From a virus, in the UHGV virus genome UHGV-0386433: a DNA stretch of 41,098 nt, one strand, 5' to 3'. The stretch's first letter is position 1. Each line of letters begins with the position of its first letter. Positions 1 to 41,098 of the stretch are shown piece by piece. The notes below the pieces were generated by a model that saw only the letters and a program-made list of their open reading frames with translations, did not search any database and was not told the DNA's origin. The translations under genes were made by a program, and so were the position numbers.

Positions 1-344
1 ATGTAAAGGAAAAGGATAATGTAAAGGATAATATTAAAAAAACATTTATCCCACCTTCGGTGTCAGATGTATCTGATTATTGCGAATTGAATAGATATGG
101 TGTTGACCCAGAGAGTTTTGTTGATTTTTATGCATCGAAAGGATGGATGGTTGGAAAGAACAAGATGAAGGACTGGAAAGCCTCGGTAAGAACTTGGGCT
201 AGAAGCCAGCGGCAGGAATTGACCGCCAAAAGCAGCAAAAACCAGTTCCATAATTTCGACCAGAGGGACACAGACTATGATGCCTTGATGTTAAAACAGG
301 TAAAAGGCTGGGTAGGGGAGGAACCGCATGATGGAAATACATAA
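1..344 (+). CDS. Replisome organizer, C-terminal half (5' partial). Reading frame is open from window start; DnaD/phage-replisome-organizer C-terminal-like motif (KGWMVGKNKMKDWKASVRTWA). Continues in frame from 40783..41098 if the genome is circular.
   Basis: No stop from nt 3 to the TAA at 342-344. The C-terminal motif resembles DnaD-like or Phg_2220_C domains. An 18-nt tandem repeat at the window ends joins in frame with the N-terminal ORF at 40783. Confidence 0.5.
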   Translation, partial: VKEKDNVKDNIKKTFIPPSVSDVSDYCELNRYGVDPESFVDFYASKGWMVGKNKMKDWKASVRTWARSQRQELTAKSSKNQFHNFDQRDTDYDALMLKQVKGWVGEEPHDGNT

Positions 345-495
345 ACGGATACTTGATTATATCAAACTCTATATGTCCGAACATAACTATCCTCCTACTA
401 CAAGAGAAATAGGGGATGGGGTTGGGTATACGTCCAGCTCCACCGTATGGGGATATTTACGTGATATGAGGGAGATGTACTTGATTGCCAGATAA
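328..495 (+). CDS. Small standalone LexA N-terminal DNA-binding-domain-like protein (55 aa; MEIHKRILDYIKLYMSEHNYPPTTREIGDGVGYTSSSTVWGYLRDMREMYLIAR).
   Basis: Not in the ORF track (<60 aa). ATG at 328/331 overlaps the stop of the upstream gene. Matches the LexA winged-helix pattern (G.PPT.REI....G..S.S.V...L..L...G.I.R). No peptidase S24 domain follows. Confidence 0.5.
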   Translation: MMEIHKRILDYIKLYMSEHNYPPTTREIGDGVGYTSSSTVWGYLRDMREMYLIAR

Positions 496-676
496 TAAAA
501 TAAAAAATCAATACAGTGATAATTCGGAACGCCAAAGAATGGCAGCGATTAAGGACATGGAGAAATATCTATCACCCATGACTAAGGCATTTCTACGACC
601 GGCATATGATAGGACTGAAATATGTCCTGATTTTTCTAGGAGGCCAAGTAACCTAAACACGTATTTAGGAGATTAA
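485..676 (+). CDS. Hypothetical protein (TTG start; possibly shorter from ATG 540).
   Basis: ORF with protein-like composition, no clear RBS. Confidence 0.25.
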   Translation: MPDNKIKNQYSDNSERQRMAAIKDMEKYLSPMTKAFLRPAYDRTEICPDFSRRPSNLNTYLGD

Positions 677-716
677 TAATTTCCATAATCAATATATTTT
701 GGAAAGGATATGCAAT

Positions 717-1064
717 ATGAAAATGAAAGATTTGGCACTGTTATATGGTATGAGCGTTTCGGAACTGTGTGAACGTACTGGATATACCAGACAGGGACTT
801 AACCGGATTCTAAGGAGTGATAAAGTTGTATATCCAGAACGCTTCCGAAATGCTCTTTATCAACTGTTGGTTGTGTCAAACAATATTGAACTGAAAGAGG
901 TCGATACAGCTCATGAGAGGTCACAGGAACGATTTCAGATATTGGATAAATTGGCAGGGAGTAAGGGCGTGCAGTGGAAACCAAGCCAGGCTCCGTTTGA
1001 TGATTCGCCGGAAGGCATTTTAAAGCGGGTAGGCACGTATTTAGTGGAGGAGGCAGAGGGATGA
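717..1064 (+). CDS. Hypothetical HTH DNA-binding protein (MKMKDLALLYGMSVSELCERTGYTRQGLNRIL...).
   Basis: RBS GGAAAGGA 8 nt before ATG 717. N-terminal helix-turn-helix-like segment. Confidence 0.5.
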   Translation: MKMKDLALLYGMSVSELCERTGYTRQGLNRILRSDKVVYPERFRNALYQLLVVSNNIELKEVDTAHERSQERFQILDKLAGSKGVQWKPSQAPFDDSPEGILKRVGTYLVEEAEG

Positions 1065-1231
1065 ATCGAATAAGGTGTTTTTTAACTGGTGGTCATAGAT
1101 TCCATCCGGGTAAAACCGAAATAGACTGTGATGATGAAAGCAAAACCTGCAAAGTAACAGAAACCTGCTGCAAATGTGGAAAAAAGTTTTCGTTTACGGC
1201 GACATATAAGCAGTTTGGAATGCCAGATTAG
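1061..1231 (+). CDS. Small Cys-rich hypothetical protein (56 aa; CxxxC...CCKCGKK).
   Basis: ATG overlaps the upstream stop (ATGA). Multiple Cys residues suggest a zinc-ribbon-like fold. Confidence 0.4.
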   Translation: MNRIRCFLTGGHRFHPGKTEIDCDDESKTCKVTETCCKCGKKFSFTATYKQFGMPD

Positions 1232-1308
1232 TAACTTAAATCGTAATTTTAAAAACTAAGGAAGGAGCCGTTCCCCGGCCGGGAAAGTGTACACGGAACC
1301 TTTTGACA

Positions 1309-1911
1309 ATGAGAATTTTAGTAGCATGTGAGGAATCACAGGCAGTTACCGTAGAGCTGCGGAGATTGGGCCACGAAGCTTATAGCTGCGACATAGAGCC
1401 GTGTAGCGGCGGTCATCCAGAATGGCATTTACAGGTGGATGCCCTGGAACTGCTTAAGATACGTTGGGATATGATTATAGCATTTCCGCCATGCACCTAT
1501 CTGAGCAATGCCGGGGCAAAACATCTTTTTCGTGGCGGTGAGTTGAATCAAGAAAGATATGAAAAAGGGTTGGAAGCAAAAGCATTTTTCCTTAATTTCT
1601 ATAATGCGGACTGCCCTAAAATAGCAGTGGAAAATCCGGTATCCAGCAGAATTTACGAAATGCCGCCGCATACGCAAGAAATACAGCCCTGGCAGTTTGG
1701 ACATTCTGTACAGAAAAAAACACGGCTATGGCTGAAAGGGTTGCCGTTGCTTGAGCCAACAAACATTGTTGAGTATAAGTGTGGCTGTCATGAGGCAGGC
1801 ACATGGTTCATGAAGGGCGGTAAGGATAGGCAGAAAAACAGGGCTAAGACATTTCCCGGAATTGCCCGTGCAATGGCTGAACAATGGGCAGGAGTTGATA
1901 CACAAAATTAA
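1309..1911 (+). CDS. DNA (cytosine-5) methyltransferase-like protein, about 200 aa. It has PC and ENV-like motifs (FPPCTYLSNAGA, AVENPVSS) and the N-terminal pattern MRILVACEESQ, but no canonical SAM motif I is visible.
   Basis: Motifs resemble C5-MTase motifs IV (PCQ-like) and VI (ENV-like). The start is ambiguous (TTG 1303 or ATG 1309) and there is no good SD. Confidence 0.45.
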   Translation: MRILVACEESQAVTVELRRLGHEAYSCDIEPCSGGHPEWHLQVDALELLKIRWDMIIAFPPCTYLSNAGAKHLFRGGELNQERYEKGLEAKAFFLNFYNADCPKIAVENPVSSRIYEMPPHTQEIQPWQFGHSVQKKTRLWLKGLPLLEPTNIVEYKCGCHEAGTWFMKGGKDRQKNRAKTFPGIARAMAEQWAGVDTQN

Positions 1912-2002
1912 CGTTTAGGCATCTGGGGGACACATAGGAGACTGCAACCGGTAGGTCTGCTCCCCAGTGTAAGCCCTATTAACGTTTAGAGAGGTAAGTA
2001 AA

Positions 2003-2236
2003 ATGGAAAATGAGCAGAAAATGATAGGGTTTCATCATGGTGCATTAAGTGATAAATACGAAATTCAAGCTAATGAGCAAGGTTACACTTTGGGAGATGA
2101 CGCCGAACTGTTCGACAAGATAGGGTATGCCTATAATCTGCTTCGTATTCATGGATATTTGACAGACAGTCAGGCAGATATGGTGTGTAAGAAAATACAA
2201 AAGAATCTTGCAAAAACAGTTAGAAAGCTAAACTGA
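2003..2236 (+). CDS. Hypothetical protein.
   Basis: ORF with RBS (GAGAGG) upstream of ATG 2003. Confidence 0.5.
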   Translation: MENEQKMIGFHHGALSDKYEIQANEQGYTLGDDAELFDKIGYAYNLLRIHGYLTDSQADMVCKKIQKNLAKTVRKLN

Positions 2237-2268
2237 GATACACACTATTAGCGTTTAAAGGAGGGTGT

Positions 2269-2475
2269 ATGAAAAGAGAAAAGCTAGAAAAGCATTTAGG
2301 GAACATTGTGGAAATAACCTTGTTTGATGGAGATGTTATTAAAGGAGAACTACATAAAACAAGAGAAGAGCGGTTTAAAGATGACCCCAATTTGTGCGTG
2401 CCGAACAATTATTATTTTTTGATAAATCCACAATCATGTCTTTTTAAATGCTCTCATGTTAAAAAGTTAAATTAG
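2269..2475 (+). CDS. Hypothetical protein.
   Basis: ORF preceded by AAAGGAGGG. Confidence 0.5.
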   Translation: MKREKLEKHLGNIVEITLFDGDVIKGELHKTREERFKDDPNLCVPNNYYFLINPQSCLFKCSHVKKLN

Positions 2476-2508
2476 GATTTCTGGGAGAACCGAGGAAAGG
2501 AAAGAAAA

Positions 2509-2847
2509 ATGAAAACTTTAAGATTTCAGGGATATAGTGATGATACTTTTGGTGAATATGGGGTAACAAATCAGGACGTTGATAATTGCGGGAGCTGTAA
2601 GCCGATTCAGTGTTTGATTACAGCAGGGACGGCAAGCCTTCTTGTGGTAGGGCACTATACAGCAAGCCACATTAACGGAGGATGCTGGGTGATTGGATTT
2701 AGCATGGAATCAGAAGGAGATTCATTACCAGACTGGCCTATCAGGTTGGTTAATGGAGACTGTGAGTATTCGCCGGTATTAGAAATTGACGTTCCGGACC
2801 GTTTTAATTTGGAATGGTTCAGTGATTGTAGAAAAGTAGAAAATTAG
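2509..2847 (+). CDS. Hypothetical protein.
   Basis: ORF preceded by GGAAAGGAAAG. Confidence 0.5.
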   Translation: MKTLRFQGYSDDTFGEYGVTNQDVDNCGSCKPIQCLITAGTASLLVVGHYTASHINGGCWVIGFSMESEGDSLPDWPIRLVNGDCEYSPVLEIDVPDRFNLEWFSDCRKVEN

Positions 2848-2862
2848 CATTTGGAGGATGAA

Positions 2863-3015
2863 ATGGACGGACGGTTAAAAATGTTAGCGTGTTTTGGATG
2901 TCCCTACTATGATGAGTGTGAGGACGAATGGGAAGAAGGGCATAGTCACTGTGATGAGATGATGGAGAAAGCAAAAGATTTCGTTGAAAGAAAAGGCATT
3001 AATCTACAAAACTAA
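2863..3015 (+). CDS. Small Cys-rich hypothetical protein (50 aa; CFGCPYYDECEDEWEEGHSHCDE).
   Basis: Not in the track. RBS GGAGGATGAA precedes ATG 2863. Confidence 0.35.
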   Translation: MDGRLKMLACFGCPYYDECEDEWEEGHSHCDEMMEKAKDFVERKGINLQN

Positions 3016-3068
3016 CATTTGTGATAGTTGTAAGAGAACAGATAGAACATAGAGAGGAGCGTGTACAT

Positions 3069-3254
3069 ATGAAGGTAGGAGAGTATCTGAAGGAGCAGCG
3101 TGAACAGCAGGGCCTGTCCCATGCGAAGCTGGCAAAGGCCGCCGGAGTGTCTAAGCGCTCCCTTATCTATTGGGAGCAGGGCAGGGATATGAGCGTGGAG
3201 GTGGCTGATAAGGTGCTTAAGGTCCTGGGCGCAACGTATAAAATAGGTGCATGA
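3069..3254 (+). CDS. XRE-family helix-turn-helix transcriptional regulator.
   Basis: HTH_3-like sequence QQGLSHAKLAKAAGVSKRSLIYWEQG. RBS GAGGAG lies 10 nt upstream of ATG 3069. Confidence 0.65.
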   Translation: MKVGEYLKEQREQQGLSHAKLAKAAGVSKRSLIYWEQGRDMSVEVADKVLKVLGATYKIGA

Positions 3255-3327
3255 TTGTGCACCAAAACTGATATTTCCGACTAAAAAAATAAATAGAGGA
3301 ACAAATTATATGCACAGAATAAAAACT

Positions 3328-3363
3328 GAGCGGTGGACACCCGCCAAGATGACTCCACCGCTC
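3328..3363. repeat. Perfect 10-bp inverted repeat (GAGCGGTGGA ... TCCACCGCTC) with a 16-nt loop.
   Basis: Read directly from the sequence. Lies in the intergenic region upstream of the recombinase-like gene. No U-tract follows. Confidence 0.7.
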
Positions 3364-3371
3364 CCGTAAAT

Positions 3372-3403
3372 ACGTCTGAGTATATTATACCTTACTCAGA
3401 CGT
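3372..3403. repeat. Perfect 11-bp inverted repeat (ACGTCTGAGTA ... TACTCAGACGT) with a 10-nt loop.
   Basis: Read directly from the sequence. It immediately follows the first hairpin and sits 30 nt upstream of the RBS/ATG at 3435. Confidence 0.7.
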
Positions 3404-3434
3404 GAAAATCAATACGAATGAGGAGGATATAATT

Positions 3435-4220
3435 ATGAGTACACAGACAATAAAAGCCGAAATAATCAACAATGTACTGGTAGCAATGTCCTTGTATATT
3501 ATGGAGCAACAGACTCTTACCATACTGGAAAATGTAATGCAGCAAGAGCTGGTTAGAGTAAATATGGAAGAAATAACCACTCTTCCGGCAGAAAGAAAGG
3601 ATGATATAAGCCAGCGGAATCAGTACATAATACAGTTGTTCCTAGTAAAAAAACGTGATTTAGCGAGAGGGACCAAAGAAAACTATCTTAACGCCATACG
3701 AAGATTGCTGACAGAGATAAGCACAAAATCACTGGACCAGATGGACACCACAGATATTGATTGGTATTTATCGCGGTATGAAATTAGAAATGTGTCCAGT
3801 GGTGGTAAGAAAAACCAACCTAGCACTTATAATAACGAGCGCCGTTTTCTGTCAGCATTTTTTACATGGATGCGCCTTGAAAAACTTATTACAGATAATC
3901 CGGTTGAGTCAATACCAGCCAAGAAAGTCCCTCTTAAACCGATAGATTACTACAGCCCAGAAGAGTCTGCAAGGTTAAGAGATGCGTGCAAAAATATCCG
4001 TGAGAGGGCATTGCTGGAGGTTCTGCGTAGCACTGGGGCGAGAATCGGAGAGATTGCGGAAATAACCCTGGACCAGATAGACATGAGGACCGGAGATATA
4101 TGGATACAGGGAGAGAAAAGCGGAAGATATCGAACTATCTATCTTGATGATGATGCGCGGCATTATGCACAGTCTACCCCACGCACCCTTCGGTCGGTAA
4201 GGGAACGGGTTAATGTATAG
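3435..4220 (+). CDS. Tyrosine-recombinase-like protein, C-terminally truncated (262 aa). It has a SAM-like N-terminal domain and the Box I arginine (GARIGEIAEITLDQID ... GEKSGRYRTIYL) but ends before the H-x-x-R and catalytic Tyr motifs.
   Basis: Strong RBS GAGGAGG upstream of ATG 3435. The integrase Box I pattern is present. The ORF stops at 4220 and the downstream ORF (4235..) carries no HxLRH/Y motifs. Confidence 0.6.
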   Translation: MSTQTIKAEIINNVLVAMSLYIMEQQTLTILENVMQQELVRVNMEEITTLPAERKDDISQRNQYIIQLFLVKKRDLARGTKENYLNAIRRLLTEISTKSLDQMDTTDIDWYLSRYEIRNVSSGGKKNQPSTYNNERRFLSAFFTWMRLEKLITDNPVESIPAKKVPLKPIDYYSPEESARLRDACKNIRERALLEVLRSTGARIGEIAEITLDQIDMRTGDIWIQGEKSGRYRTIYLDDDARHYAQSTPRTLRSVRERVNV

Positions 4221-4234
4221 CAGGAAGGAGGATT

Positions 4235-4537
4235 ATGCGAACGAGAGACAAGAACTATAGTGATTATGGCATTACCGATGACGAAGCCAAACGCATAAAA
4301 GAATACTGCCAGACCGCCAGCATAGAGGATAAACTTACATTGTTCCAGTGTGCCATATCATCGGCTCCTGGCCTAGAAATAGAGATATACGAAAGCCTTG
4401 TGAAAAATATTGGGTATGATAGATTATGTAAAATGAGGAACATACCCATTAAGCGTGATGACTTCTATGGATACCAGCGGAAAGTGCTGGATGAATATAG
4501 GCGGTTAATGACATTGTTTGGGAGGTGGAAAGGATGA
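4235..4537 (+). CDS. Hypothetical protein.
   Basis: RBS AGGAAGGAGG precedes ATG 4235. Confidence 0.5.
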   Translation: MRTRDKNYSDYGITDDEAKRIKEYCQTASIEDKLTLFQCAISSAPGLEIEIYESLVKNIGYDRLCKMRNIPIKRDDFYGYQRKVLDEYRRLMTLFGRWKG

Positions 4538-4686
4538 TTGGTGCTGATAGCACTATACGGGTAACGGAATTTTTATATGCTTGGAGATTGGTTATAGAGG
4601 CCAGTAAAAAATTAACCGTTGAAGATATGGTAATGCTTGAAAAAATTGTGGAGGAAATGGAGGAATTAAAAAATGGAGTCAATTGA
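4534..4686 (+). CDS. Small hypothetical protein (50 aa).
   Basis: ATG overlaps the upstream stop (ATGA). Not in the track. Confidence 0.3.
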   Translation: MIGADSTIRVTEFLYAWRLVIEASKKLTVEDMVMLEKIVEEMEELKNGVN

Positions 4687-4981
4687 GAATCCAAAAGATA
4701 TAAAATTTTATAATATGGGTGGAGCTGATATTATTGTCATTGTATCACCAAATAATACTGAATCACCTTTTAATGTATTATTTAATCCAACATGGAACAA
4801 TTTTGAAGAAGGAGACAAAACATTAACGCTTGATGATATTTTTCAGCAAGTGAACAGGATATATAGAGAAGCAGTAATTTTAGTTATTGCTGAATACCCA
4901 CTAAGAGGTAATATATATCGCTATGGAAATTACGAAGGGGCAGGATGGATAGAGGTGGGAACTATGGACGGATACGCTTAA
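4673..4981 (+). CDS. Hypothetical protein in an AT-rich patch.
   Basis: ORF with RBS. Local GC is clearly lower than in flanking genes. Confidence 0.45.
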   Translation: MESIENPKDIKFYNMGGADIIVIVSPNNTESPFNVLFNPTWNNFEEGDKTLTLDDIFQQVNRIYREAVILVIAEYPLRGNIYRYGNYEGAGWIEVGTMDGYA

Positions 4982-5054
4982 ATGTGGGGACGATTTACAT
5001 TAACCACGCATGGTAAAATTAGTATAGGACTATTATAATGCATGGGGTAAAAAC

Positions 5055-5246
5055 ATGATTATTAATCTATTAAAAGAATGTTGTGAAAACTGTATTCACA
5101 TTGACGCAAAAGCAGAGAATATAGTTACATCATATAGAAACATGCGGGAATCTAATGTGGTAAAATCTACGACTGCAACTATTTGGTGTGCACACATGGA
5201 AGTATGCAAAGAATACCGTGAGGCAGAAAATAAAGATGAATCTTAG
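5055..5246 (+). CDS. Small Cys-containing hypothetical protein (63 aa).
   Basis: ORF lies 60 bp downstream of the 16-bp motif AAATGTGGGGACGATT. Confidence 0.4.
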   Translation: MIINLLKECCENCIHIDAKAENIVTSYRNMRESNVVKSTTATIWCAHMEVCKEYREAENKDES

Positions 5247-5487
5247 TTTAGTTATGAAAAAGCTTCAGCGCGCCATATTGCAGACCAGGCTTGTAATTAA
5301 GATATCTACCAGCCAATTTTACAGTGAGGAGCAGGGGCGCATGATAACCATATGGATATTAAGCACCCCTGTGCTACAGCAGGATAAGCACGGAGAGTGG
5401 AAAACAAGGGATTATGAAATACTGCGGAGTGCATCGGGGATTGAGATTGTGAAGTGCTTGCAGGAGATATGGGAGGCGATGAAGTGA
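5236..5487 (+). CDS. Hypothetical protein.
   Basis: ORF; the start choice is uncertain. Confidence 0.35.
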   Translation: MNLSLVMKKLQRAILQTRLVIKISTSQFYSEEQGRMITIWILSTPVLQQDKHGEWKTRDYEILRSASGIEIVKCLQEIWEAMK

Positions 5488-5699
5488 TGGAAAAAATAAA
5501 ATGGATTCCTATTAATGATAAATCTCCGAATGAAAATCAAAAAGTTTGGGTGACGTTAGAATATCATGGAGGGGATAGACGAATTGATAAATGTGTCTAT
5601 CGTGGTGGAAGCTTCATGAAAGATAAATATATTTCCTGTGATAACATTGTGGTTGCATGGATGCCAAGATTTGTGCCGGAACCATATAAAGAAGGGTAG
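5487..5699 (+). CDS. DUF551-like phage protein (KWIPINDKSPNENQKVWV...VVAWMPRFVPEPYK).
   Basis: Motifs W.P...P near the N-terminus and WMP.P.P near the C-terminus are typical of DUF551. ATG overlaps the upstream stop. Confidence 0.5.
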   Translation: MEKIKWIPINDKSPNENQKVWVTLEYHGGDRRIDKCVYRGGSFMKDKYISCDNIVVAWMPRFVPEPYKEG

Positions 5700-5710
5700 G
5701 ACGTGGTTAA

Positions 5711-6109
5711 GTGGAGCTTACACCAAAGCAGAAAGCGTTTGCGGATTATTACATAGAATGCGGGAATGCGGCAGAAGCTGCAAGAAAGGCTGGTTACAGC
5801 TTACGGACAGCAGACGCAATAGGGCGTGAAAACTTACGGAAGCCTACGGTTTCTGCATATATCTCTGAGCGACAGAAACAGATTGATGATTGCCGCATAG
5901 CTGATGCCGCTGAAATACTGCAATACCTTACGTCTGTAATGCGCGGAGAAGTAAAAGACCAATTCGGACTTGATGCTCCGCTGGCAGAGAGGACCAAAGC
6001 GGCGGTGGAACTGGCAAAGCGTAAAATAGATACAGACAAGAAGCAGGAGGGCGGCGGGATTACCATTGTCAACAACATACCAAGAACAGACAACAATAAA
6101 TCTGACTGA
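5711..6109 (+). CDS. terS: Terminase small subunit (P27/Terminase_2-like).
   Basis: N-terminal pattern LTPKQKAFADYYIECGNAAEAARKAGYS. Sits immediately upstream of the large subunit. Confidence 0.8.
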   Translation: MELTPKQKAFADYYIECGNAAEAARKAGYSLRTADAIGRENLRKPTVSAYISERQKQIDDCRIADAAEILQYLTSVMRGEVKDQFGLDAPLAERTKAAVELAKRKIDTDKKQEGGGITIVNNIPRTDNNKSD

Positions 6110-7325
6110 TGTAATCGCTCCTTCCTTCTATGGCGTTCATTGGGATATCCTGGACAACAATCATACATATTATGACCTTTACGGTGGGCGCGGTTCCACA
6201 AAGTCCTCTTTCATATCTGTTGAAATCATACTGGGAATGATGGATGACCCAGAGGCCAATGCGGTAGTGTTTCGTAAGTACGCCGTAACCATCGGAGAAT
6301 CAGTATTTGAACAGATACAGTGGGCCATAGACGCGCTAGGAGTAACAGATTTATGGGAATCCCGCACAAGCCCATATAGATTCGTTTATAAGCCAACGGG
6401 GCAAAAGATAATATTCCGTGGACTTGATAAGGCCAAGAAAACAAAGTCTATAAAGGCCAGTAAAGGATATTTTAAATACCTATGGTTCGAGGAACTGGAC
6501 GAATTTGCAGGACCGGAGGAAATACGAACTGTTGAACAGTCAGTATTGCGTGGCGGAAGCAAGTTTGTTGTATTTAAATCATTTAACCCTCCTATCAGTC
6601 AAAGCAACTGGGCTAATCAGTATGTAAATACGCCGGATGATAGCGCATGCAGGCATAAAAGCGATTACCGTTCTGTACCGGAAGAATGGTTAGGAGAAAT
6701 GTTTATTGAGCGCGCAGAACATCTTAAGACTACCAATGAGCGGGCATATAACCATGAGTATTTAGGATTACCTGTTGGGCTTGGTACAAATATATTTGAC
6801 ATGCTGGATATACGGACCATTACAGATGATGAAATCAAGGGATACCAAAGCGTTTACCAGGGACAGGACTGGGGATGGTTCCCGGACCCAAAAGCATTTA
6901 TCCGGGCTGCATACATACCGAACAAGGAAATGGTTGTGCTGCTTGATGAAATGGGAGGCTGCAAAATTCGTAACAGTAAGATGGCGGAGGATATACAGAC
7001 GGCTGGGTACGATGATTATACAATCTATTGCGGAGTGGATGAAGAAGAAAGCATTATAGACTTCCGTGACGCTGGTTTACCGGCCCGCAGAGCCATTGTA
7101 ACGCCAGGAAGCAGGAAATATACCTTTGAGTGGTTGCAGTGCCGTACAATCGTTATAGACCCGGCACGTACGCCACGGGCATACAAGGAAATCATAGAAT
7201 ATGAGCATGAGGTTGATAGCAATGGCGAAGTGATAGCAGATTATCCAGATGGGAACGACCACTGGATTGACGCTCTCCGTTATGCTACAAGCCCGTTGTC
7301 AATGAGAAGGGGGAACAGTGCATGA
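6066..7325 (+). CDS. terL: Terminase large subunit (PBSX/Terminase_3-like).
   Basis: Walker-A-like GGRGSTKS, ATPase and nuclease-region motifs. 419 aa between terS and portal. The start is uncertain (TTG 6066). Confidence 0.9.
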   Translation: MSTTYQEQTTINLTDVIAPSFYGVHWDILDNNHTYYDLYGGRGSTKSSFISVEIILGMMDDPEANAVVFRKYAVTIGESVFEQIQWAIDALGVTDLWESRTSPYRFVYKPTGQKIIFRGLDKAKKTKSIKASKGYFKYLWFEELDEFAGPEEIRTVEQSVLRGGSKFVVFKSFNPPISQSNWANQYVNTPDDSACRHKSDYRSVPEEWLGEMFIERAEHLKTTNERAYNHEYLGLPVGLGTNIFDMLDIRTITDDEIKGYQSVYQGQDWGWFPDPKAFIRAAYIPNKEMVVLLDEMGGCKIRNSKMAEDIQTAGYDDYTIYCGVDEEESIIDFRDAGLPARRAIVTPGSRKYTFEWLQCRTIVIDPARTPRAYKEIIEYEHEVDSNGEVIADYPDGNDHWIDALRYATSPLSMRRGNSA

Positions 7326-7543
7326 CAGAATATAGCAAAAAGCGAGTAGGACAATTTCTAAAAAAGTATGTTGATATTTCCCCTGGTCATTCATACACAG
7401 AGGAATGCGTTATACGGCAAGGAATAAATGAATTGATATCAAACTGCATCTATACACCTAAAGGATTGCAGAGACAGATATTAAAGGAACAATCGGTATT
7501 GTTACCTTTGAGCTATATTGATAATTGCGCAAGATATAGGTGA
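7322..7543 (+). CDS. Hypothetical protein.
   Basis: ORF overlaps the terL stop (ATGA). Confidence 0.4.
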   Translation: MTEYSKKRVGQFLKKYVDISPGHSYTEECVIRQGINELISNCIYTPKGLQRQILKEQSVLLPLSYIDNCARYR

Positions 7544-7547
7544 TTAA

Positions 7548-8981
7548 ATGGGACTAATAACATGGGCTAAAAAGGTGATAGGAATGATATTCAAGCGACA
7601 GGCAGAAGAAGATTTTAATGTTGAGTCAGTAGTATCCCCGGAGATGGAAAGCAAGATTGCAGAGTGCGCCAATATCTACCGGGGTACTCCCTATTGGGTG
7701 AATGCTGACGATAACGTTAAGACAATCAATTTTGCAAAGGCTATATGCTCCGAGACGGCCCGGCTTGCCACGTTGGCTATTGGGATACAGATTGATGGGA
7801 GTGCGCGGGCGACATGGCTCCAGGAGCAGATTGATAAGATATATTTCCAGATTAGACATTGGGTAGAATATGGTATGGCCTACGGTACAATTATACTAAA
7901 GCCAAACGGTAAAGGACTGGACATATTCACACCGCAAGATTTTATTATTACAGACTGCGACAACGAAGGTATATATGGGATTGTGTTTAAGGATAGCTAC
8001 AGCGAAAACAAGAAATATTACACCCGGTTTGAATATCATAGGTTTGTTGAGGTCAAAGATGGAGACAATAACTATTATCCCTATTACATATCCAATAAAG
8101 CCTATGTTTCAAGCTCGGCAAACAGCTTAGGCGACCCTATTCCATTAAACAGAACTAAATGGGCGGACCTTATGCCGGAAACCCCGCCCATTTTAAAATC
8201 AAATGACGGAAAACTGGATGGTCCCATGTTTGGCGTACTCCGTACTCCACAGGCTAACAATGTGGATATTTCATCACCTTTGGGATTGCCAATGTTCACA
8301 GAAGCAATCGAGGAATTAAAAGACCTTGATGTAGCATACAGCCGAAATGTTGGTGAAATATTTGACAGTGAGAAAATTATATTGGTGGACGACCAGCTGA
8401 TGTTTGGAAGCGGCACAAACATTAAGGGGCGTTATGCTGGTATGAGCAACGAAAAGCTTCCTCATTATGTAAAAAATGTATTTGGAAATGGAACGGAATA
8501 TTTCTATCGGGAGATTGTTCCATCATTGAATACTGATACCAGAATTACTGGAATAAATAACCTACTCTCGTTTGTGGGATTTAAGTGTGGATATTCTAAT
8601 GGGTATTTTGTGCTTGATGAAAAGACAGGTATGGTCACAGCAACACAGGTAGAAGCTGATGACCGGAGGACCATACAGCTAATCAAGGATGTGCGCGACA
8701 AACTGGAAAGTTGTCTTGATGGGGCAATATATGCACTTAATGTATATGCTGATTTGTACGTACTGGCACCGCCAGGAAACTATGAAATAACATATGATTT
8801 TGGGGACATTACATACAACCGAGAAGAGGACCGGGCAAGATGGTGGCTGTATGTTGTGCAAGGAAAGGTGCCGGCCTGGATGTATTTCCAGAAGTTTGAA
8901 GGGTTATCCGAAGAAGATGCGAAAGCTATGGTGCAGGAAGCGCAGCCGAAGGAGAGTCCGAGGATGTTTGGGGAGGAATAG
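7548..8981 (+). CDS. Portal protein (SPP1 Gp6-like).
   Basis: 477 aa, placed directly after the terminase genes, with a portal-like sequence. Confidence 0.85.
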   Translation: MGLITWAKKVIGMIFKRQAEEDFNVESVVSPEMESKIAECANIYRGTPYWVNADDNVKTINFAKAICSETARLATLAIGIQIDGSARATWLQEQIDKIYFQIRHWVEYGMAYGTIILKPNGKGLDIFTPQDFIITDCDNEGIYGIVFKDSYSENKKYYTRFEYHRFVEVKDGDNNYYPYYISNKAYVSSSANSLGDPIPLNRTKWADLMPETPPILKSNDGKLDGPMFGVLRTPQANNVDISSPLGLPMFTEAIEELKDLDVAYSRNVGEIFDSEKIILVDDQLMFGSGTNIKGRYAGMSNEKLPHYVKNVFGNGTEYFYREIVPSLNTDTRITGINNLLSFVGFKCGYSNGYFVLDEKTGMVTATQVEADDRRTIQLIKDVRDKLESCLDGAIYALNVYADLYVLAPPGNYEITYDFGDITYNREEDRARWWLYVVQGKVPAWMYFQKFEGLSEEDAKAMVQEAQPKESPRMFGEE

Positions 8982-17351: not shown

Positions 17352-17620
17352 TAATTAGAGCCAGTCGCCAGTCGCAGAGCCATGCAGATTACAGAAATGT
17401 AGTTTGTGTGGCTTTTACTTATATTTGACCTCCCTCCTATAGCACATGTCCTTAACAGAAACAGGTCCTATCGCCTAACGCAAACGGCCTGGAGGTTGAA
17501 AAGCGGATGCAATTTCCGGCATGTGCGTTTTAGGACACGCCAAGTCCTACAAAATGGCAAACCGTTGGTGGACGGTTACACACCTATAAATAACCTAATA
17601 ACGGAAAAGGAGAATCATCA

Positions 17621-18238
17621 ATGAAAACCGAAGAATTAAAAGCACAGGGATTGACAGAGGAACAGATATCTTTTGTCATGGCTGAAAATGGGAAAGACCT
17701 TAAAAAGTTGCAGAAGGAAAATGACAATCTGACTACTGACCGGGATACCTGGAAAGAAAAAGCAGAAGCAGCCGAAACAACACTGAAAGGCTTTGAAGGG
17801 GTTGACCTGGAGACAATGCAGAAAGAACTGTCTGACTGGAAACAGAAAGCTACAGAAGCCGAAAAGAGCGCCCAGGCACAGCTTTATGAACGTGATTTTG
17901 CAGATGCGCTTAAAACAGAATTTGAGGGTATTAAGTTTTCCAGCGAGGCGGCTAAACGTGCAATCATGGCAGAAGTAAAAGAGGCCGGATTAAAGCTGAA
18001 GGACGGTAAAATCTTGGGGCTGAATGACCTTATAGGCCAGATGAAAGAAAAGGATGCTTCGGCATTTGTTGATGATGCGCAGCAGCAAATACAGCAGAAC
18101 ATGGCAAGGTTTACTGCTCCTAAAAAATCGGGTAGTTCTGGCACCATGAATAAAGATGAGATTATGGCTATCAAGGACCGAAGTGAACGGCGCGCCGCAA
18201 TAGCTCAAAACATGCATTTATTTGAAGGAGAAAAATAA
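17621..18238 (+). CDS. Scaffolding protein.
   Basis: Acidic, highly alpha-helical/coiled-coil 205-aa protein immediately upstream of the major capsid gene. RBS AAAAGGAG. Confidence 0.7.
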   Translation: MKTEELKAQGLTEEQISFVMAENGKDLKKLQKENDNLTTDRDTWKEKAEAAETTLKGFEGVDLETMQKELSDWKQKATEAEKSAQAQLYERDFADALKTEFEGIKFSSEAAKRAIMAEVKEAGLKLKDGKILGLNDLIGQMKEKDASAFVDDAQQQIQQNMARFTAPKKSGSSGTMNKDEIMAIKDRSERRAAIAQNMHLFEGEK

Positions 18239-32329: not shown

Positions 32330-33400
32330 TTACATGCTGTTCAATTTTTCAAAGTGCTTATTAATTTTTTTGTTTTGCCGGACGGTTTCTGAGTCAATTG
32401 CATTTCTGTATACGGTTTTCATAATATTGTCGCTGGCCCATCCTCCCCGCTGCAAAATATATTGGTCCGGTATCCCTATAGCGTGCATAATGGATGCAGC
32501 ATAATGCCGGAGGTCGTGAAAGCGGAAATGGGGTATGTCAATCTTTTTGAGTACTCGCCCGAATCGGTGTGTGATGTAATCCGGGTTCATATCAACCAGC
32601 TTTCCTTTTTTTTCAGATATCCGGTCAATTACAAATGCTGGCATTTCTACATCCCTTGTACTGTCATCTGTCTTTGGCTGTTTGATATACCATTGATTGT
32701 CTGGCCCCTTGACCATATTATCTCTTACATGGATAATTTTTCCATCCACGTCCTTATCGGTTAGAGCGCTTATCTCCCCTCTCCTAAGTGGACCAAACGC
32801 AGCCAATAATACAGCTATCTCCAAATCAGTGCCTTTAATAGCATCCAGCAACTTTTTAATATCATTGTCATTGGGGCAATATAAGTTAGGACGTTTTTTT
32901 TGAGGCAGTTTAACGTTTAAAGTTAATTCGGGTGCAAACATTTCCAGCGTTGGAGATAACAGACCATAGGCATTTCTTACCGTCTTTGGAGATAGTTTTT
33001 TTGCAGCTAAATTACTTACCCATATTTGCACAGATGGACTTGTCAGTTCTGAAAGCTTTTTTTGGCCAAATGCGCCGCCGAAATACTGTCTTTGCAGACC
33101 AGTGTACCCTCTAAGAGTAGAAGGGCTTAAAACACCGCTCTTGGCGTTTAAATAGCGTTCAATAGCATCATTAACTGTAATATCTTCTTCGTCCTCTTCT
33201 GGTACGTTGTATTGTTCTATGGGCTTGTCCTTCATATCTAATTTCCATCTAGCTGCCATTTCTTGTGCGATTTTGCGTGATGGGGCAACAAAACTTTTGT
33301 AATGCCGTTTACCTTTCTCATCCGTATATAAGTATAATTGTACACGGATATTTTTGGATGGTAGTTCGCCTATTTTCTTTTTCGGGGCTTTCTTTGTCAT
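32330..33400 (-). CDS. int: Tyrosine integrase (phage integrase family), complete.
   Basis: Box I GPLRRGEI, Box II HDLRHYAAS and catalytic Tyr in TVYRNAI. True start is ATG 33400, after AAGGAGGAAAGG. The track's TTG at 33418 lies inside the RBS. Confidence 0.9.
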   Translation of the reverse strand: MTKKAPKKKIGELPSKNIRVQLYLYTDEKGKRHYKSFVAPSRKIAQEMAARWKLDMKDKPIEQYNVPEEDEEDITVNDAIERYLNAKSGVLSPSTLRGYTGLQRQYFGGAFGQKKLSELTSPSVQIWVSNLAAKKLSPKTVRNAYGLLSPTLEMFAPELTLNVKLPQKKRPNLYCPNDNDIKKLLDAIKGTDLEIAVLLAAFGPLRRGEISALTDKDVDGKIIHVRDNMVKGPDNQWYIKQPKTDDSTRDVEMPAFVIDRISEKKGKLVDMNPDYITHRFGRVLKKIDIPHFRFHDLRHYAASIMHAIGIPDQYILQRGGWASDNIMKTVYRNAIDSETVRQNKKINKHFEKLNSM

Positions 33401-33531
33401 TTTCCTTTCCTCCTTCAATTAATTTTCCTAAAAATAGGTATAAAAAATACAGCTCCGCAAATATCTTGCAAAGCCGCCCCGAAGATGGTACAATATAGGT
33501 GCGAATTATAGTGCATATCTTCGGGTATGTA

Positions 33532-34505: not shown

Positions 34506-34940
34506 TTAGTTTCTCCTTCCGATTATTTTAAAATCAAAAAGTTTTTCCCTATATCCCGTTAATCCAGCAAGTTGTTTTTTACTCATTCCTGGATTTTCCA
34601 ATATAGTTTTGTCCGGTATTAAAAGTTCAGCAGTAAAAATGTTTGCTTCTTGTTCGGGCTTAGCCTTACTAAAAAAGGTTCCTCCAAAAAACATACATTC
34701 AGTACCTTTGTGTAGCACCCCATGACCTACTTCATGGGCTAAGACAATATCACTGTATTTGGTATCGGTAATGCGTGAGTTGATGCATATACACGGTACT
34801 CCTTCGTATTCTATGTAGTAACCCGAGTATTGACCCAGGTCATGCTTTTGTACAATAAAACCTAAATAGTCCGCAATTTCCATAGGATTTCTGGTTCCGT
34901 ATTTTTCAACCAGATTCAAAACAGTATCTTTAATCTCCAA
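34506..34940 (-). CDS. ImmA/IrrE-family metallopeptidase (HEXXH: LAHEVGHGVLH).
   Basis: Zinc-metalloprotease motif. Directly downstream of the XRE repressor gene. Confidence 0.75.
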   Translation of the reverse strand: MEIKDTVLNLVEKYGTRNPMEIADYLGFIVQKHDLGQYSGYYIEYEGVPCICINSRITDTKYSDIVLAHEVGHGVLHKGTECMFFGGTFFSKAKPEQEANIFTAELLIPDKTILENPGMSKKQLAGLTGYREKLFDFKIIGRRN

Positions 34941-34943
34941 TCG

Positions 34944-35363
34944 CTACTCTCCAAAGCCTTCCTGCTTTTTCTTAATCTTAGCCGCCCTACAAAGTGATAA
35001 CAGTGAGTCTCTTAATAATTTATCCTCATCCTCATCCCCTGAGTAATCCTCGCCGTTAAATCTTAGGACAACCGTCTCGTTGTTCCTTATGCGCTTCATA
35101 ATTTCGTCAACATCATTAATAACATTAAGCTCTTCGTTATTAGAAAGAGTGGGCTTCTTTGCTTCTGGGGATTCCTCCTTCCCATAAAATACAGAAAGCG
35201 GAACTCCAAAATAATCGGCTATTTTCTGTAGTTTGTTTGCTTTAAAATTCCACTTTCCTTGTTTCCAACCTGTAAATGAGGCGGTTGAAATACCTGTCGC
35301 CTTTGCAACTTGGTAAGTAGTTACTCCATATTGCTTTAGAAGCGATTCAAATATTTCATACAT
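34944..35363 (-). CDS. XRE-family HTH repressor (cI/ImmR-like).
   Basis: N-terminal HTH (YQVAKATGISTASFTGWKQG). Divergent from the cro-like gene. Confidence 0.8.
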   Translation of the reverse strand: MYEIFESLLKQYGVTTYQVAKATGISTASFTGWKQGKWNFKANKLQKIADYFGVPLSVFYGKEESPEAKKPTLSNNEELNVINDVDEIMKRIRNNETVVLRFNGEDYSGDEDEDKLLRDSLLSLCRAAKIKKKQEGFGE

Positions 35364-35783: not shown

Positions 35784-36524
35784 ATGGAAGAGATTATAAA
35801 AATCAATTACGATGCTGAACATCCGACCGTATCGGCAAGAGAGTTGCATGAGGGATTAGAGATTGGCACACGGTTTAATGATTGGTTTCAGAGGATGGTA
35901 GAGTATGGATTTTTAGAAGGAAAAGACTTTTACTCAAAAAAGAGTAAAACCTCAGAAATCGGCGGAAGACCATCAATAGACTATGAAATCACTGTAGACA
36001 TGGCAAAGCAGATTTGTATGATACAGCGTACCGAAAAGGGCAGACAGTACCGCCAGTATTTCCTTGACTTAGAGAAAGCATGGAATACACCGGAACAGGT
36101 AATGGCTAGGGCTTTGAAAATGGCTGGAAAGACCATTGACAAACTAAAGTCACAAAACACTGTACTCCTGGAGGACGTTCAGCGTATGAAACCGAAAGAA
36201 ATATTTGCTGATGCTGTGGCAACTAGTCATACATCAATTCTTATTGGTGACTTGGCGAAGCTGATTAAACAAAACGGCATAGACATCGGACAGAAAAGAT
36301 TATTTTCTTGGTTGAGGGATAATGGCTATCTGATTAAACGGAATGGTTCTGAATGGAATATGCCAACACAACGAAGTATGGAGGCAGGATTATTTGAGGT
36401 AAAGGAAAGTACAGTGAATAATCCTGATGGCTCCGTAAGAATAAACAAGACTACCAAAGTTACTGGAAAAGGGCAGCAGTATTTTATCAACAAGTTTTTA
36501 AGGAGGGAAAATGGAAGAAATTAG
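35784..36524 (+). CDS. Antirepressor (AntA/AntB N-terminal domain plus KilA-C/ANT C-terminal domain).
   Basis: KilAC-like segment ILIGDLAKLIKQNGIDIGQKRLFSWLRDNGYLIKRNGSEWNMPTQRSMEAGLF. Confidence 0.8.
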   Translation: MEEIIKINYDAEHPTVSARELHEGLEIGTRFNDWFQRMVEYGFLEGKDFYSKKSKTSEIGGRPSIDYEITVDMAKQICMIQRTEKGRQYRQYFLDLEKAWNTPEQVMARALKMAGKTIDKLKSQNTVLLEDVQRMKPKEIFADAVATSHTSILIGDLAKLIKQNGIDIGQKRLFSWLRDNGYLIKRNGSEWNMPTQRSMEAGLFEVKESTVNNPDGSVRINKTTKVTGKGQQYFINKFLRRENGRN

Positions 36525-40402: not shown

Positions 40403-40786
40403 TTGAAGAATAAAAGAACTGTTAGCGAAGAAGTTCAGGCAAGGGTATATAATGCGCTCCTTGTAGGAAAAGAGAACGCATTGAACCGGGATGAAATGGT
40501 GTCAAAGACAGGAGAAGAAGATAGAGATATACGAACTGCGATTGAAATGTTAAGACACGATAAGGTAATCCTTACACTTCCAAAAGGAAAAGGTTACTAT
40601 ATTCCCCTTGATGATGCACAGGGGAGGCAAGAAGCCTATAGATGGATTGAAAGCCAGGATAACCGGATAGAGAGTATTAAAGCGGCAGAACGTGGCGCAG
40701 AACTCTTTGTAGGACGAAATAAAAATAATAAAAAGAAAGATACCGGATTTCCTGGACAACTGAGTATGTTTGGTGCTGGAGTATGA
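40403..40786 (+). CDS. Hypothetical protein.
   Basis: RBS AAAGGAGGG before TTG 40403. Confidence 0.45.
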   Translation: MKNKRTVSEEVQARVYNALLVGKENALNRDEMVSKTGEEDRDIRTAIEMLRHDKVILTLPKGKGYYIPLDDAQGRQEAYRWIESQDNRIESIKAAERGAELFVGRNKNNKKKDTGFPGQLSMFGAGV

Positions 40787-41098
40787 GGGATAGTGTTGTA
40801 TTTTATCGCAGCTTTTGGGAAGCCATTAAACAATTGCCTGAAAAAGAAAGATTGGAATCCATAACAGCAATTTTGGAATATGGACTTGATGAAATAGAAC
40901 CTAAATCAGCAGGCGTTGCATCAGCAATGTTTTTAATGGCAAAACCACAAATTGATGCAAATAATAGAAGATATCAAAATGGAACCAAAGGTGGAAGACC
41001 ATCAACCAAGGAAGAACCTATTAATAACCAAGATTTAACCTATGAAAAACCAAACAATAACCAAGAAATAACCAAAGGAAAACCTAAGGAAAAGGATA
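40783..41098 (+). CDS. Replisome organizer, N-terminal domain (3' partial; FYRSFWEAIKQLPEKERLESITAILEYGL...PQID).
   Basis: phage_rep_org_N-like motif. The ORF runs off the window end, in frame with the ORF at the window start. Confidence 0.55.
   Translation, partial: MRDSVVFYRSFWEAIKQLPEKERLESITAILEYGLDEIEPKSAGVASAMFLMAKPQIDANNRRYQNGTKGGRPSTKEEPINNQDLTYEKPNNNQEITKGKPKEKD

What the first reader, a model, noticed from the sequence alone, without database searches (positions are those of the whole stretch)
328..495. Standalone LexA DNA-binding-domain protein lacking the autopeptidase domain
The 55-aa ORF matches the LexA N-terminal winged helix (YPPTTREIGDGVGYTSSSTVWGYLRDMREMYLIAR) but stops where the S24 peptidase domain would begin. 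A cleavage-immune LexA DBD made by a phage could occupy host SOS boxes, or the phage's own operators, independently of RecA. This would be a compact way to tune SOS-linked induction. The gene overlaps the replisome-organizer stop, so it is early-expressed.
Basis: partly seen in the sequence, partly recalled or inferred. Interest (0 to 1): 0.55.

Follow-up and report, generated by a model that had tools for sequence, protein, structure and literature searches.

The report
Deletion-truncated phage LexA-like DNA-binding gene
The 55-residue gene really is related to the DNA-binding part of the bacterial SOS repressor LexA, but it is a recently damaged copy (a 79-base deletion removed part of the DNA-binding domain) of an 84-residue phage gene, and phage proteins of that kind are already known.

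Summary
The ORF at 328..495 (+) is real and significantly LexA-like: Pfam LexA_DNA_bind, 38 bits against a cutoff of 23.7. It does not end where the S24 peptidase domain would begin. It ends after helix 3, inside the winged-helix domain (profile positions 9-50 of 65). Its closest relatives (75-94% identical) are 83-86 aa and cover the whole domain. A DNA alignment shows a 79-nt out-of-frame deletion at a GGAG microhomology. The deletion removes the wing, including the family's near-invariant G51, P60 and R61. The old C-terminus (GDVLDCQIIK*) is still readable in another frame.

The deletion allele belongs to one clonal, temperate, probably Lachnospiraceae phage seen in many gut assemblies, so the intact gene is dispensable there. 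The phage has no SOS box and carries a separate XRE/ImmA/Ant lysogeny switch.

Standalone LexA-DBD proteins are common (4,649 cluster representatives) and one is characterised: GIL01 gp6 activates a late promoter.

Verdict: the homology is confirmed, the functional reading is not supported for this copy, and the kind is already known. The copy is most likely a crippled remnant. An unannotated, conserved 63-aa gene (485..676) overlaps its 3' end, and the deletion spared that gene's ribosome-binding site and start codon.

The parts
328..495 (+). 55-aa ORF: a truncated allele of an 84-aa phage LexA-DBD-type winged-HTH gene. Residues 1-49 are homologous (helices 1-3). Residues 50-55 (MYLIAR) are frameshifted.
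315..321 (+). Shine-Dalgarno (GGGGAGG) 6 nt before the ATG at 328. The start lies inside the end of the upstream gene, an arrangement that allows translational coupling.
   Evidence: read directly from the sequence
471..474 (+). Deletion junction. GGAG microhomology at which 79 nt (about codons 50-76 of the intact gene, including the wing) were lost.
   Evidence: DNA alignment A1 of the window and short alleles against full-length alleles
471..503 (+). Remnant of the original C-terminus, GDVLDCQIIK*, now out of frame (frame 3). Its first residues are supplied by the GGAG junction.
   Evidence: P0002 residues 74-84 map to 468-500
485..676 (+). Overlapping downstream small gene (63 aa, TTG start, frame 2), not called by the gene callers on most of the related contigs. 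It travels with the LexA-DBD gene as a mosaic cassette. Its RBS is the GGAG at the deletion junction.
   Evidence: codon-position differences 12/10/33; 26 synonymous against 17 non-synonymous codons versus the Dorea locus; family of 60-88 aa hypothetical proteins
40786..41098 (+). 5' part of the upstream DUF6291 putative replication-initiator gene. It continues in frame at window position 1.
1..344 (+). 3' part of the upstream DUF6291 / phrog_15768 gene. Its last 17 nt overlap the LexA-DBD ORF.

Best explanation
The ORF is a recently truncated allele of a small (about 84 aa) phage gene encoding a standalone winged helix-turn-helix of the LexA_DNA_bind family.

In intact relatives the protein is a complete LexA-type DBD (three helices plus a beta-hairpin wing) with a short tail. 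It is encoded immediately after, and overlapping, the phage's replication-initiator gene. By analogy with the one characterised example (GIL01 gp6), it most likely binds a phage-specific site as an early-made transcription factor. It is unlikely to mimic LexA on host SOS boxes.

In the window's phage lineage, a 79-nt deletion between two GGAG tetranucleotides removed the wing and shifted the frame. What remains is helices 1-3 plus six unrelated residues. The deletion kept the Shine-Dalgarno, the TTG start and the nearby upstream stop codon of the overlapping downstream gene. That probably explains why this particular lesion was tolerated. The remnant is probably still translated but has lost or severely weakened specific DNA binding, and the gene is dispensable for this phage.

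Shown: the homology, the deletion and its polarity, the loss of the wing, the clonal spread, and the absence of SOS boxes. Inferred: loss of function, the gp6-like role of the intact family, and the timing of expression.
For: Homology. Pfam PF01726: 38 bits for the window ORF, 48 bits for intact P0002 with full 9-65/65 coverage. The AF2 model of P0002 superposes on LexA DBDs 3jso/1jhh/1lea at about 1 A over 65 residues.

Deletion. Nearest relatives are 83-86 aa. Alignment A1 shows a 79-nt gap flanked by GGAG in otherwise 98% identical genes. The old C-terminus is readable in frame 3. More distant relatives, including the Dorea locus, all have the wing, so the event was a deletion here and not an insertion elsewhere.

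Loss of key residues. Across 34 family members, G51 is invariant and P60 and R61 are near-invariant, and all three lie in the deleted stretch. The model of the 55-aa protein has three helices and no strands. LexA's fixed-spacer operator recognition is attributed to contacts made by the wing (PMC8565304 citing Zhang et al. 2010).

Dispensability. The short allele is indexed in 45 blocks of the assembly collection. The 8 loci fetched, from 8 different samples, are about 100% identical to the window over the roughly 2.6 kb compared. The window is a circularly closed 41-kb genome.

Precedent. GIL01 gp6 is a truncated LexA homologue in the early operon that activates late promoter P3 through its own palindrome. 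gp6 and P0002 are 32% identical over 57 aa, E=5e-8.

No SOS boxes. A separate lysogeny switch is present.
Against: Loss of function is inferred, not measured. AF2 still predicts a confident three-helix bundle (pLDDT 83) that superposes on the LexA helices. The recognition helix is intact, and by chance the frameshifted tail recreates the 'LI' of strand beta-1.

The allele is at least as frequent in public assemblies as the intact one (45 blocks against 12 contigs). That would also fit a neutral or even advantageous change. Because all carriers are clonal, there is no evolutionary signal (dN/dS or further decay) to show whether the remnant is under selection or decaying.

No operator for the intact family was identified, so the gp6-like role is an analogy only. 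gp6's essential K38 is a serine in this family.
Confidence: 0.75

Rival explanations
1. The protein is a functional, cleavage-immune LexA DBD that occupies host SOS boxes (or LexA-type boxes on the phage) independently of RecA, and so tunes SOS-linked induction.
For: There is real LexA-DBD homology and no S24 domain. The recognition helix (TSSSTVWGYL) is closer to Firmicute LexA fragments (SSSTVHGHL in P0028/P0031) than to gp6 (SHKTAHRYL). The phage has no such boxes of its own, so any LexA-box binding would have to be on the host chromosome.
Against: This copy lacks the wing and its conserved G/P/R residues. It has no dimerisation domain. There are no SOS boxes in the phage, and near-boxes are depleted. 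The characterised analogue gp6 evolved its own site and activates transcription. SOS coupling in this phage is already provided by XRE/ImmA/Ant.
Confidence: 0.07
2. The wing-less 55-aa product keeps or has gained a function. It could be a weak helix-turn-helix binder, a decoy that interferes with full-length homologues from co-resident prophages, or a partner of the replication initiator. On this view the deletion is adaptive and not degenerative.
For: A strong RBS and a start that overlaps the upstream gene are retained. The three-helix model is confident. The allele is widespread. Its prevalence is at least equal to that of the intact allele.
Against: All carriers are one clone, so prevalence may only reflect the success of that phage or of its host. 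The deletion is out of frame and leaves the old C-terminus as untranslated debris, which is typical of a random lesion. The family's conserved wing residues are lost.
Confidence: 0.13
3. The intact family is not a transcription factor. It is an accessory DNA-binding subunit for replication initiation (origin recognition together with the DUF6291 / Lin1244_N initiator), and the window copy is a defective version of that.
For: Family members always sit directly after, and overlap, a replication-initiator gene, even when that gene belongs to a different family (DUF6291 here; Lin1244_N in L021-L024). DnaD N-terminal winged helices appear among the weaker fold matches.
Against: The sequence and fold matches to LexA are far stronger than those to DnaD. 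gp6 also lies in a replication operon, after the DNA polymerase gene, yet is a transcriptional activator. The phage replicates well enough to be widespread without the intact protein.
Confidence: 0.15

Closest known systems
GIL01 gp6 (Bacillus thuringiensis tectivirus; Fornelos et al. 2018, PMC6182141)
   Same: A phage-encoded, truncated LexA homologue made only of the LexA-type winged HTH, with no S24 domain. It is encoded in the early/replication operon. It is 32% identical to intact P0002 over 57 aa (E=5e-8). It is followed by a small gene, gp7 in GIL01 and the 63-aa ORF here.
   Different: gp6 is 66 aa and has an intact wing. The window copy lacks the wing, and the intact family has an extra tail of about 20 aa. 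gp6's essential K38 is Ser in this family. The phage type (tectivirus against a tailed temperate phage) and the host differ. GIL01 uses host LexA as its repressor and carries LexA boxes, whereas this phage has its own XRE repressor and no boxes. gp7 and the 63-aa ORF show no apparent similarity (by eye).
Bacterial LexA (TIGR00498; PDB 3jso, 1jhh, 1lea)
   Same: The N-terminal winged-HTH fold and sequence family (PF01726). The P0002 model superposes at about 1 A over 65 residues.
   Different: There is no linker cleavage site and no S24 Ser-Lys peptidase/dimerisation domain. The lexA equivalog scores are 30 bits (window ORF) and 42.5 bits (P0002) against a cutoff of 110.95. The window copy additionally lacks the wing.
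Standalone 'LexA repressor DNA-binding domain-containing' / 'LexA family' small proteins of phages and prophages (PHROG 3502 and 362; BFVD entries such as Mycobacterium phage Wildcat Q19Y47, 77 aa; NCBI 'LexA family protein', 84 aa, Thermicanus)
   Same: The same single-domain architecture and size class. Of the 150 best profile hits, 89 are 63-110 aa. The names and folds match.
   Different: Most of these are uncharacterised, so only the architecture is shared. The window copy is a truncated member.

Membership tests
Pfam PF01726 LexA_DNA_bind (LexA-type winged HTH) | Score above the curated gathering threshold | tested here: met
   Window ORF 38 bits and P0002 48.1 bits, against a cutoff of 23.7
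Pfam PF01726 LexA_DNA_bind (LexA-type winged HTH) | Complete domain: three helices plus the two-strand wing (profile to position 65) | tested here: not met
   The window ORF matches only positions 9-50 of 65, and its model has no strands. Intact relatives match 9-65 of 65.
LexA repressor proper (TIGR00498 equivalog) | C-terminal S24 peptidase/dimerisation domain with a Ser-Lys dyad and an Ala-Gly cleavage site | tested here: not met
   The protein ends at residue 55 (84 in intact alleles). The match covers only model positions 8-52 of 203 (8-68 for P0002), scoring 30 and 42.5 bits against a cutoff of 110.95.
LexA repressor proper (TIGR00498 equivalog) | Binds SOS boxes (GAAC-N4-GTTC in Firmicutes) | not testable with these tools
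   Binding cannot be measured here. No such box exists in the window, and one-mismatch sites number 2 against 10.7 expected.
gp6-like phage truncated LexA homologues (late-gene activators) | DBD-only architecture with the wing, and homology to gp6 | tested here: inconclusive
   The intact family meets it (32% identity, E=5e-8, full wing). The window copy fails on the wing.
gp6-like phage truncated LexA homologues (late-gene activators) | Encoded in the early/replication operon | tested here: met
   It lies directly after, and overlaps, the DUF6291 initiator-like gene, on the same strand as the replication/recombination genes. Timing is inferred from position only.
gp6-like phage truncated LexA homologues (late-gene activators) | A specific palindromic operator at a late promoter, and the recognition-helix Lys38 | tested here: not met
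   No palindrome shared by family-carrying phages was found outside coding homology. Position 38 is Ser. Activation itself cannot be tested here.

The most novel reading that the evidence does not exclude
The wing-less 55-aa product is not debris but a selected micro-protein. One possibility is a three-helix decoy that poisons full-length LexA-DBD regulators of competing or co-resident prophages, or titrates a protein partner. Another is that the 79-nt deletion is an adaptive regulatory change that retunes translation of the overlapping, conserved 63-aa gene. Either would help explain why the deletion clone is seen in more assemblies than the intact allele.
Probability: 0.1. Interest if true: 0.45.

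Novelty: new member of a known kind. Interest (0 to 1): 0.15.

Why it matters
It matters little as a discovery. Phage-encoded LexA DNA-binding domains without the peptidase domain are abundant, already annotated as such, and one (GIL01 gp6) is mechanistically characterised.

The result is useful in three ways. First, it corrects the annotation: this copy is a deletion-truncated allele and should not be taken as a minimal natural LexA DBD. Second, it shows that the intact gene is dispensable in a widespread gut phage. Third, it reveals a conserved small gene, missed on most related contigs, that overlaps the 3' end of the ORF.

The intact 84-aa subfamily of Lachnospiraceae phages would be a reasonable but ordinary target for testing whether gp6-type late activation extends to tailed phages.

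Tried and rejected
1. SOS (Cheo) box searches found nothing: CGAAC-N4-GTTCG with up to 1 mismatch, and GAAC-N4-GTTC exact. The relaxed search gave fewer sites than chance.

2. I searched for an operator as short palindromes shared among family-carrying loci (window, L001, L002, L006, L015, L021). The only one shared by four loci (TCTGAT-N3-ATCAGA, window 38252) lies inside a homologous coding sequence. Inverted repeats in 1..7600 gave no convincing candidate.

3. The deletion-junction 30-mer and an intact-allele 29-mer were absent from IMG/VR, and the junction was absent from the JGI metagenomes. The carriers come from ENA and Logan gut assemblies. I could therefore not collect diverged deletion alleles to test for selection or decay.

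4. Diversity among short-allele contigs is essentially nil, so there is no dN/dS signal.

5. The genome-contig scan gave a single locus, an uncultured Dorea MAG. The host assignment therefore stays tentative.

6. The idea that the downstream 63-aa gene is obligately paired with the LexA-DBD gene, as gp7 is with gp6, was rejected. Homologues occur without it, and there is no apparent similarity to gp7 (by eye).

7. Promoter and terminator scans around the gene were at or below the chance level for promoters. The one + strand terminator-like hairpin at 610-629 lies inside the conserved small ORF.

8. Rfam found nothing near the locus.

9. The Zhang et al. 2010 LexA-DNA structure paper is not held. 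The role of the wing is therefore cited second-hand and from general knowledge.

Full report
**1. What is there.** A GGGGAGG Shine-Dalgarno lies 6 nt upstream. The start overlaps the end of the upstream gene by 17 nt.

The window behaves as a circularly permuted complete phage genome. The ORF that starts at 40786 runs off the right end and continues in frame at position 1, ending at 344. That upstream protein carries DUF6291 (72 bits) and phrog_15768. Weak DNA matches to it are annotated DUF4373 or 'replication initiation protein' in other phages.

**2. Is it LexA-like?** Yes.
- Pfam PF01726 (LexA_DNA_bind) matches at E=1.4e-9, 38 bits, cutoff 23.7.
- The NCBIfam lexA equivalog matches through its N-terminus only, at 30 bits against a cutoff of 110.95.
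- The only PDB sequence hits are LexA chains, and they are marginal: 8s7g at E=0.013 and 1lea at E=0.24.
- The match covers only profile positions 9-50 of 65. The ORF therefore stops at the end of helix 3, before the beta-hairpin wing, and not at the DBD/peptidase boundary.

**3. Why it stops there.** The identical 54-aa protein (P0001) is on many contigs, but every other close homologue (75-94% identical) is 83-86 aa. Intact P0002 (84 aa) covers the whole Pfam domain (9-65 of 65, 48 bits).

Frame 3 of the window reads GDVLDCQIIK*, the exact C-terminus of P0002. tblastn places P0002 residues 1-53 at 328-486 and residues 74-84 at 468-500, in a different frame.

I aligned the DNA of the window and two other short alleles against three full-length alleles. 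It shows a single 79-nt gap in otherwise near-identical sequence, with 3 differences in 165 nt. A GGAG lies at each end (...GATATGAG|GGAGGTTGG...AGGAAA|GGAGATGTAC...). Since 79 = 26x3+1, the frame shifts. The six terminal residues MYLIAR are the old tail read out of frame.

More distant relatives all have the wing: a 34-sequence alignment, and a locus in an uncultured Dorea MAG. So the event was a deletion in the window's lineage. The deleted stretch contains the invariant G51 and the near-invariant P60 and R61 (motif GLI.Y.DECPRTIT).

**4. Structure.**
- An AF2 model of P0002 (pLDDT 78) has helices 3-19, 25-32 and 37-49 followed by a beta region. Its best PDB matches are LexA DNA-binding domains (3jso, 1jhh, 3k2z, 1lea), at 0.9-1.4 A over about 65 residues and TM 0.70-0.75.
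- The model of the window protein (pLDDT 83) has the same three helices and nothing else. It still superposes on the LexA helices, but without a significant E-value.
- In LexA, the fixed-spacer recognition of the operator is attributed to contacts made by the wing (PMC8565304 citing Zhang et al. 2010).
- From general knowledge, not tested here: the wing also contacts the DNA backbone and contributes to the hydrophobic core. Isolated LexA N-terminal fragments bind much more weakly than the dimer.
- A wing-less monomeric remnant is therefore expected to be a poor specific DNA binder. This is an inference.

**5. Population and context.** The short allele is indexed in 45 blocks of the assembly collection. 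The eight loci retrieved, from eight different samples, are about 100% identical to the window over the roughly 2.6 kb compared. This is one clonal phage seen many times, not an assembly artefact.

Carriers of the intact allele are a different, mosaic set of phages. They share the gene (98%) and about 200 nt downstream (85-89%), but only 70% of the upstream gene and none of the downstream genes. The deletion is therefore recent. It is not lethal, so the intact protein is dispensable for this phage. Because the carriers are clonal, nothing can be said about selection on the remnant.

The phage is temperate and has a complete, separate switch:
- integrase (32330..33418, minus strand);
- ImmA/IrrE-type M78 protease (34506..34940, minus strand);
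- XRE repressor (34944..35363, minus strand);
- AntA+KilAC antirepressor (35784..36524, plus strand).

It contains no Firmicute SOS box, and one-mismatch boxes are fewer than chance (2 against 10.7 +/- 3.3). The host is probably a Lachnospiraceae. The only genome hit is a Dorea MAG. The neighbouring small gene has homologues in Enterocloster. The methyltransferase gene resembles those of Clostridium scindens and Enterocloster phages.

**6. What the intact family probably does.** Family members of 83-102 aa always lie immediately after, and overlapping, a replication-initiator-type gene. This holds even when that gene is of a different family: DUF6291 here, Lin1244_N in the P0016 loci.

The closest characterised protein is GIL01 gp6. 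It is a 66-aa 'truncated homologue of LexA' consisting of the winged HTH. It is encoded in the early replication operon. It binds its own palindrome overlapping the -35 of late promoter P3 and activates late transcription, and K38 in its recognition helix is essential (PMC6182141). gp6 and P0002 are 32% identical over 57 residues (E=5e-8). The family has Ser at the K38 position, and its helix 3 (SSSTVWGYL) is closer to Firmicute LexA (SSSTVHGHL).

I found no candidate operator. The gp6-like role is therefore the best-supported analogy but is not shown. A role as a replication accessory remains possible.

**7. Known or new.** Standalone LexA-DBD proteins are very common. A profile of the intact family finds 4,649 cluster representatives at E<=1e-3. 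Of the best 150, 89 are 63-110 aa, with a median of 97 aa. BFVD lists many 65-90 aa phage proteins named 'LexA repressor DNA-binding domain-containing protein'. NCBI names an 84-aa example 'LexA family protein'. PHROGs 3502 and 362 cover them. The window copy is a damaged member of an uncharacterised subfamily.

**8. By-product.** The conserved 200 nt downstream is a real gene that the gene callers did not call in the window's lineage or on most of the related contigs. ORF 485..676 (frame 2, TTG start, 63 aa) is present next to every allele. In the Dorea locus it has an ATG start. There it differs at codon positions 1/2/3 by 12/10/33 substitutions, with 26 synonymous and 17 non-synonymous codon changes. 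It belongs to a family of 60-88 aa hypothetical proteins that also occurs without a LexA-DBD neighbour.

Its Shine-Dalgarno is the GGAG at the deletion junction. The deletion preserved that RBS, the TTG start and an upstream-ORF stop only 8 nt past the start. This probably explains why this lesion survived (inference).

**9. Verdict.** Interest is low.

Noticed in passing
window 485..676 (+): A conserved 63-aa gene (TTG start) that the gene callers did not call on the window-lineage contigs or on most related ones. It overlaps the 3' end of the LexA-DBD ORF. It shows a clear coding signature against a Dorea locus (codon-position differences 12/10/33). It belongs to a family of 60-88 aa hypothetical proteins, including one in Enterocloster citroniae, with no Pfam, PHROG or NCBIfam match.
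   Followed up: partly
window 35784..36524 (+): An AntA + ANT/KilAC two-domain antirepressor with the same architecture as Listeria phage AriS, whose KilAC domain inhibits the host SOS response (PMC9043618). It is a better candidate for SOS tuning in this phage than the LexA-DBD remnant.
   Followed up: partly
window 34506..35363 (-): An ImmA/IrrE-type M78 metalloprotease (34506..34940) next to an XRE-type repressor (34944..35363). This points to a protease-mediated, ImmR/ImmA-style induction switch and not a LexA/CI-type self-cleaving repressor.
   Followed up: partly
window 17441..17597 (+): Two adjacent Rfam matches above their gathering scores: RAGATH-21 sRNA (17441-17527, 82.5 bits) and the GP20-b cis-regulatory motif (17533-17597, 40.1 bits). 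They lie just upstream of the ORF at 17621..18238 in the structural module.
   Followed up: no
window 3333..4220 (+): A second tyrosine-recombinase-like gene (295 aa) sits ahead of the packaging genes, apart from the lysogeny integrase at 32330..33418. Pfam matches only positions 6-80 of 172 of the catalytic domain. Homologues of 261-348 aa sit in a similar position in related phages, and the gene is split in two in L017-L019. It may be a degenerate or regulatory recombinase-fold protein.
   Followed up: no
whole window: GAAC-N4-GTTC with up to 1 mismatch occurs twice (11456, 20296), against 10.7 +/- 3.3 in dinucleotide-preserving shuffles. This is an apparent depletion of LexA-box-like sequences. 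The cause is unknown; it could be restriction-site or composition avoidance.
   Followed up: no
window 1 / 41098 junction: The DUF6291 gene is split by the window ends and reads through in frame with no terminal repeat. The window is therefore a circularly permuted complete genome of about 41.1 kb.
   Followed up: yes
family members P0022 and P0025 (alignment A4): Other family members also look damaged at the wing. P0022 has an internal deletion after CPRTI, and P0025 is frameshifted after GLINYID. This hints that the gene is repeatedly lost or broken, but both are single-contig clusters (one a short contig) and could be sequencing errors.
   Followed up: no
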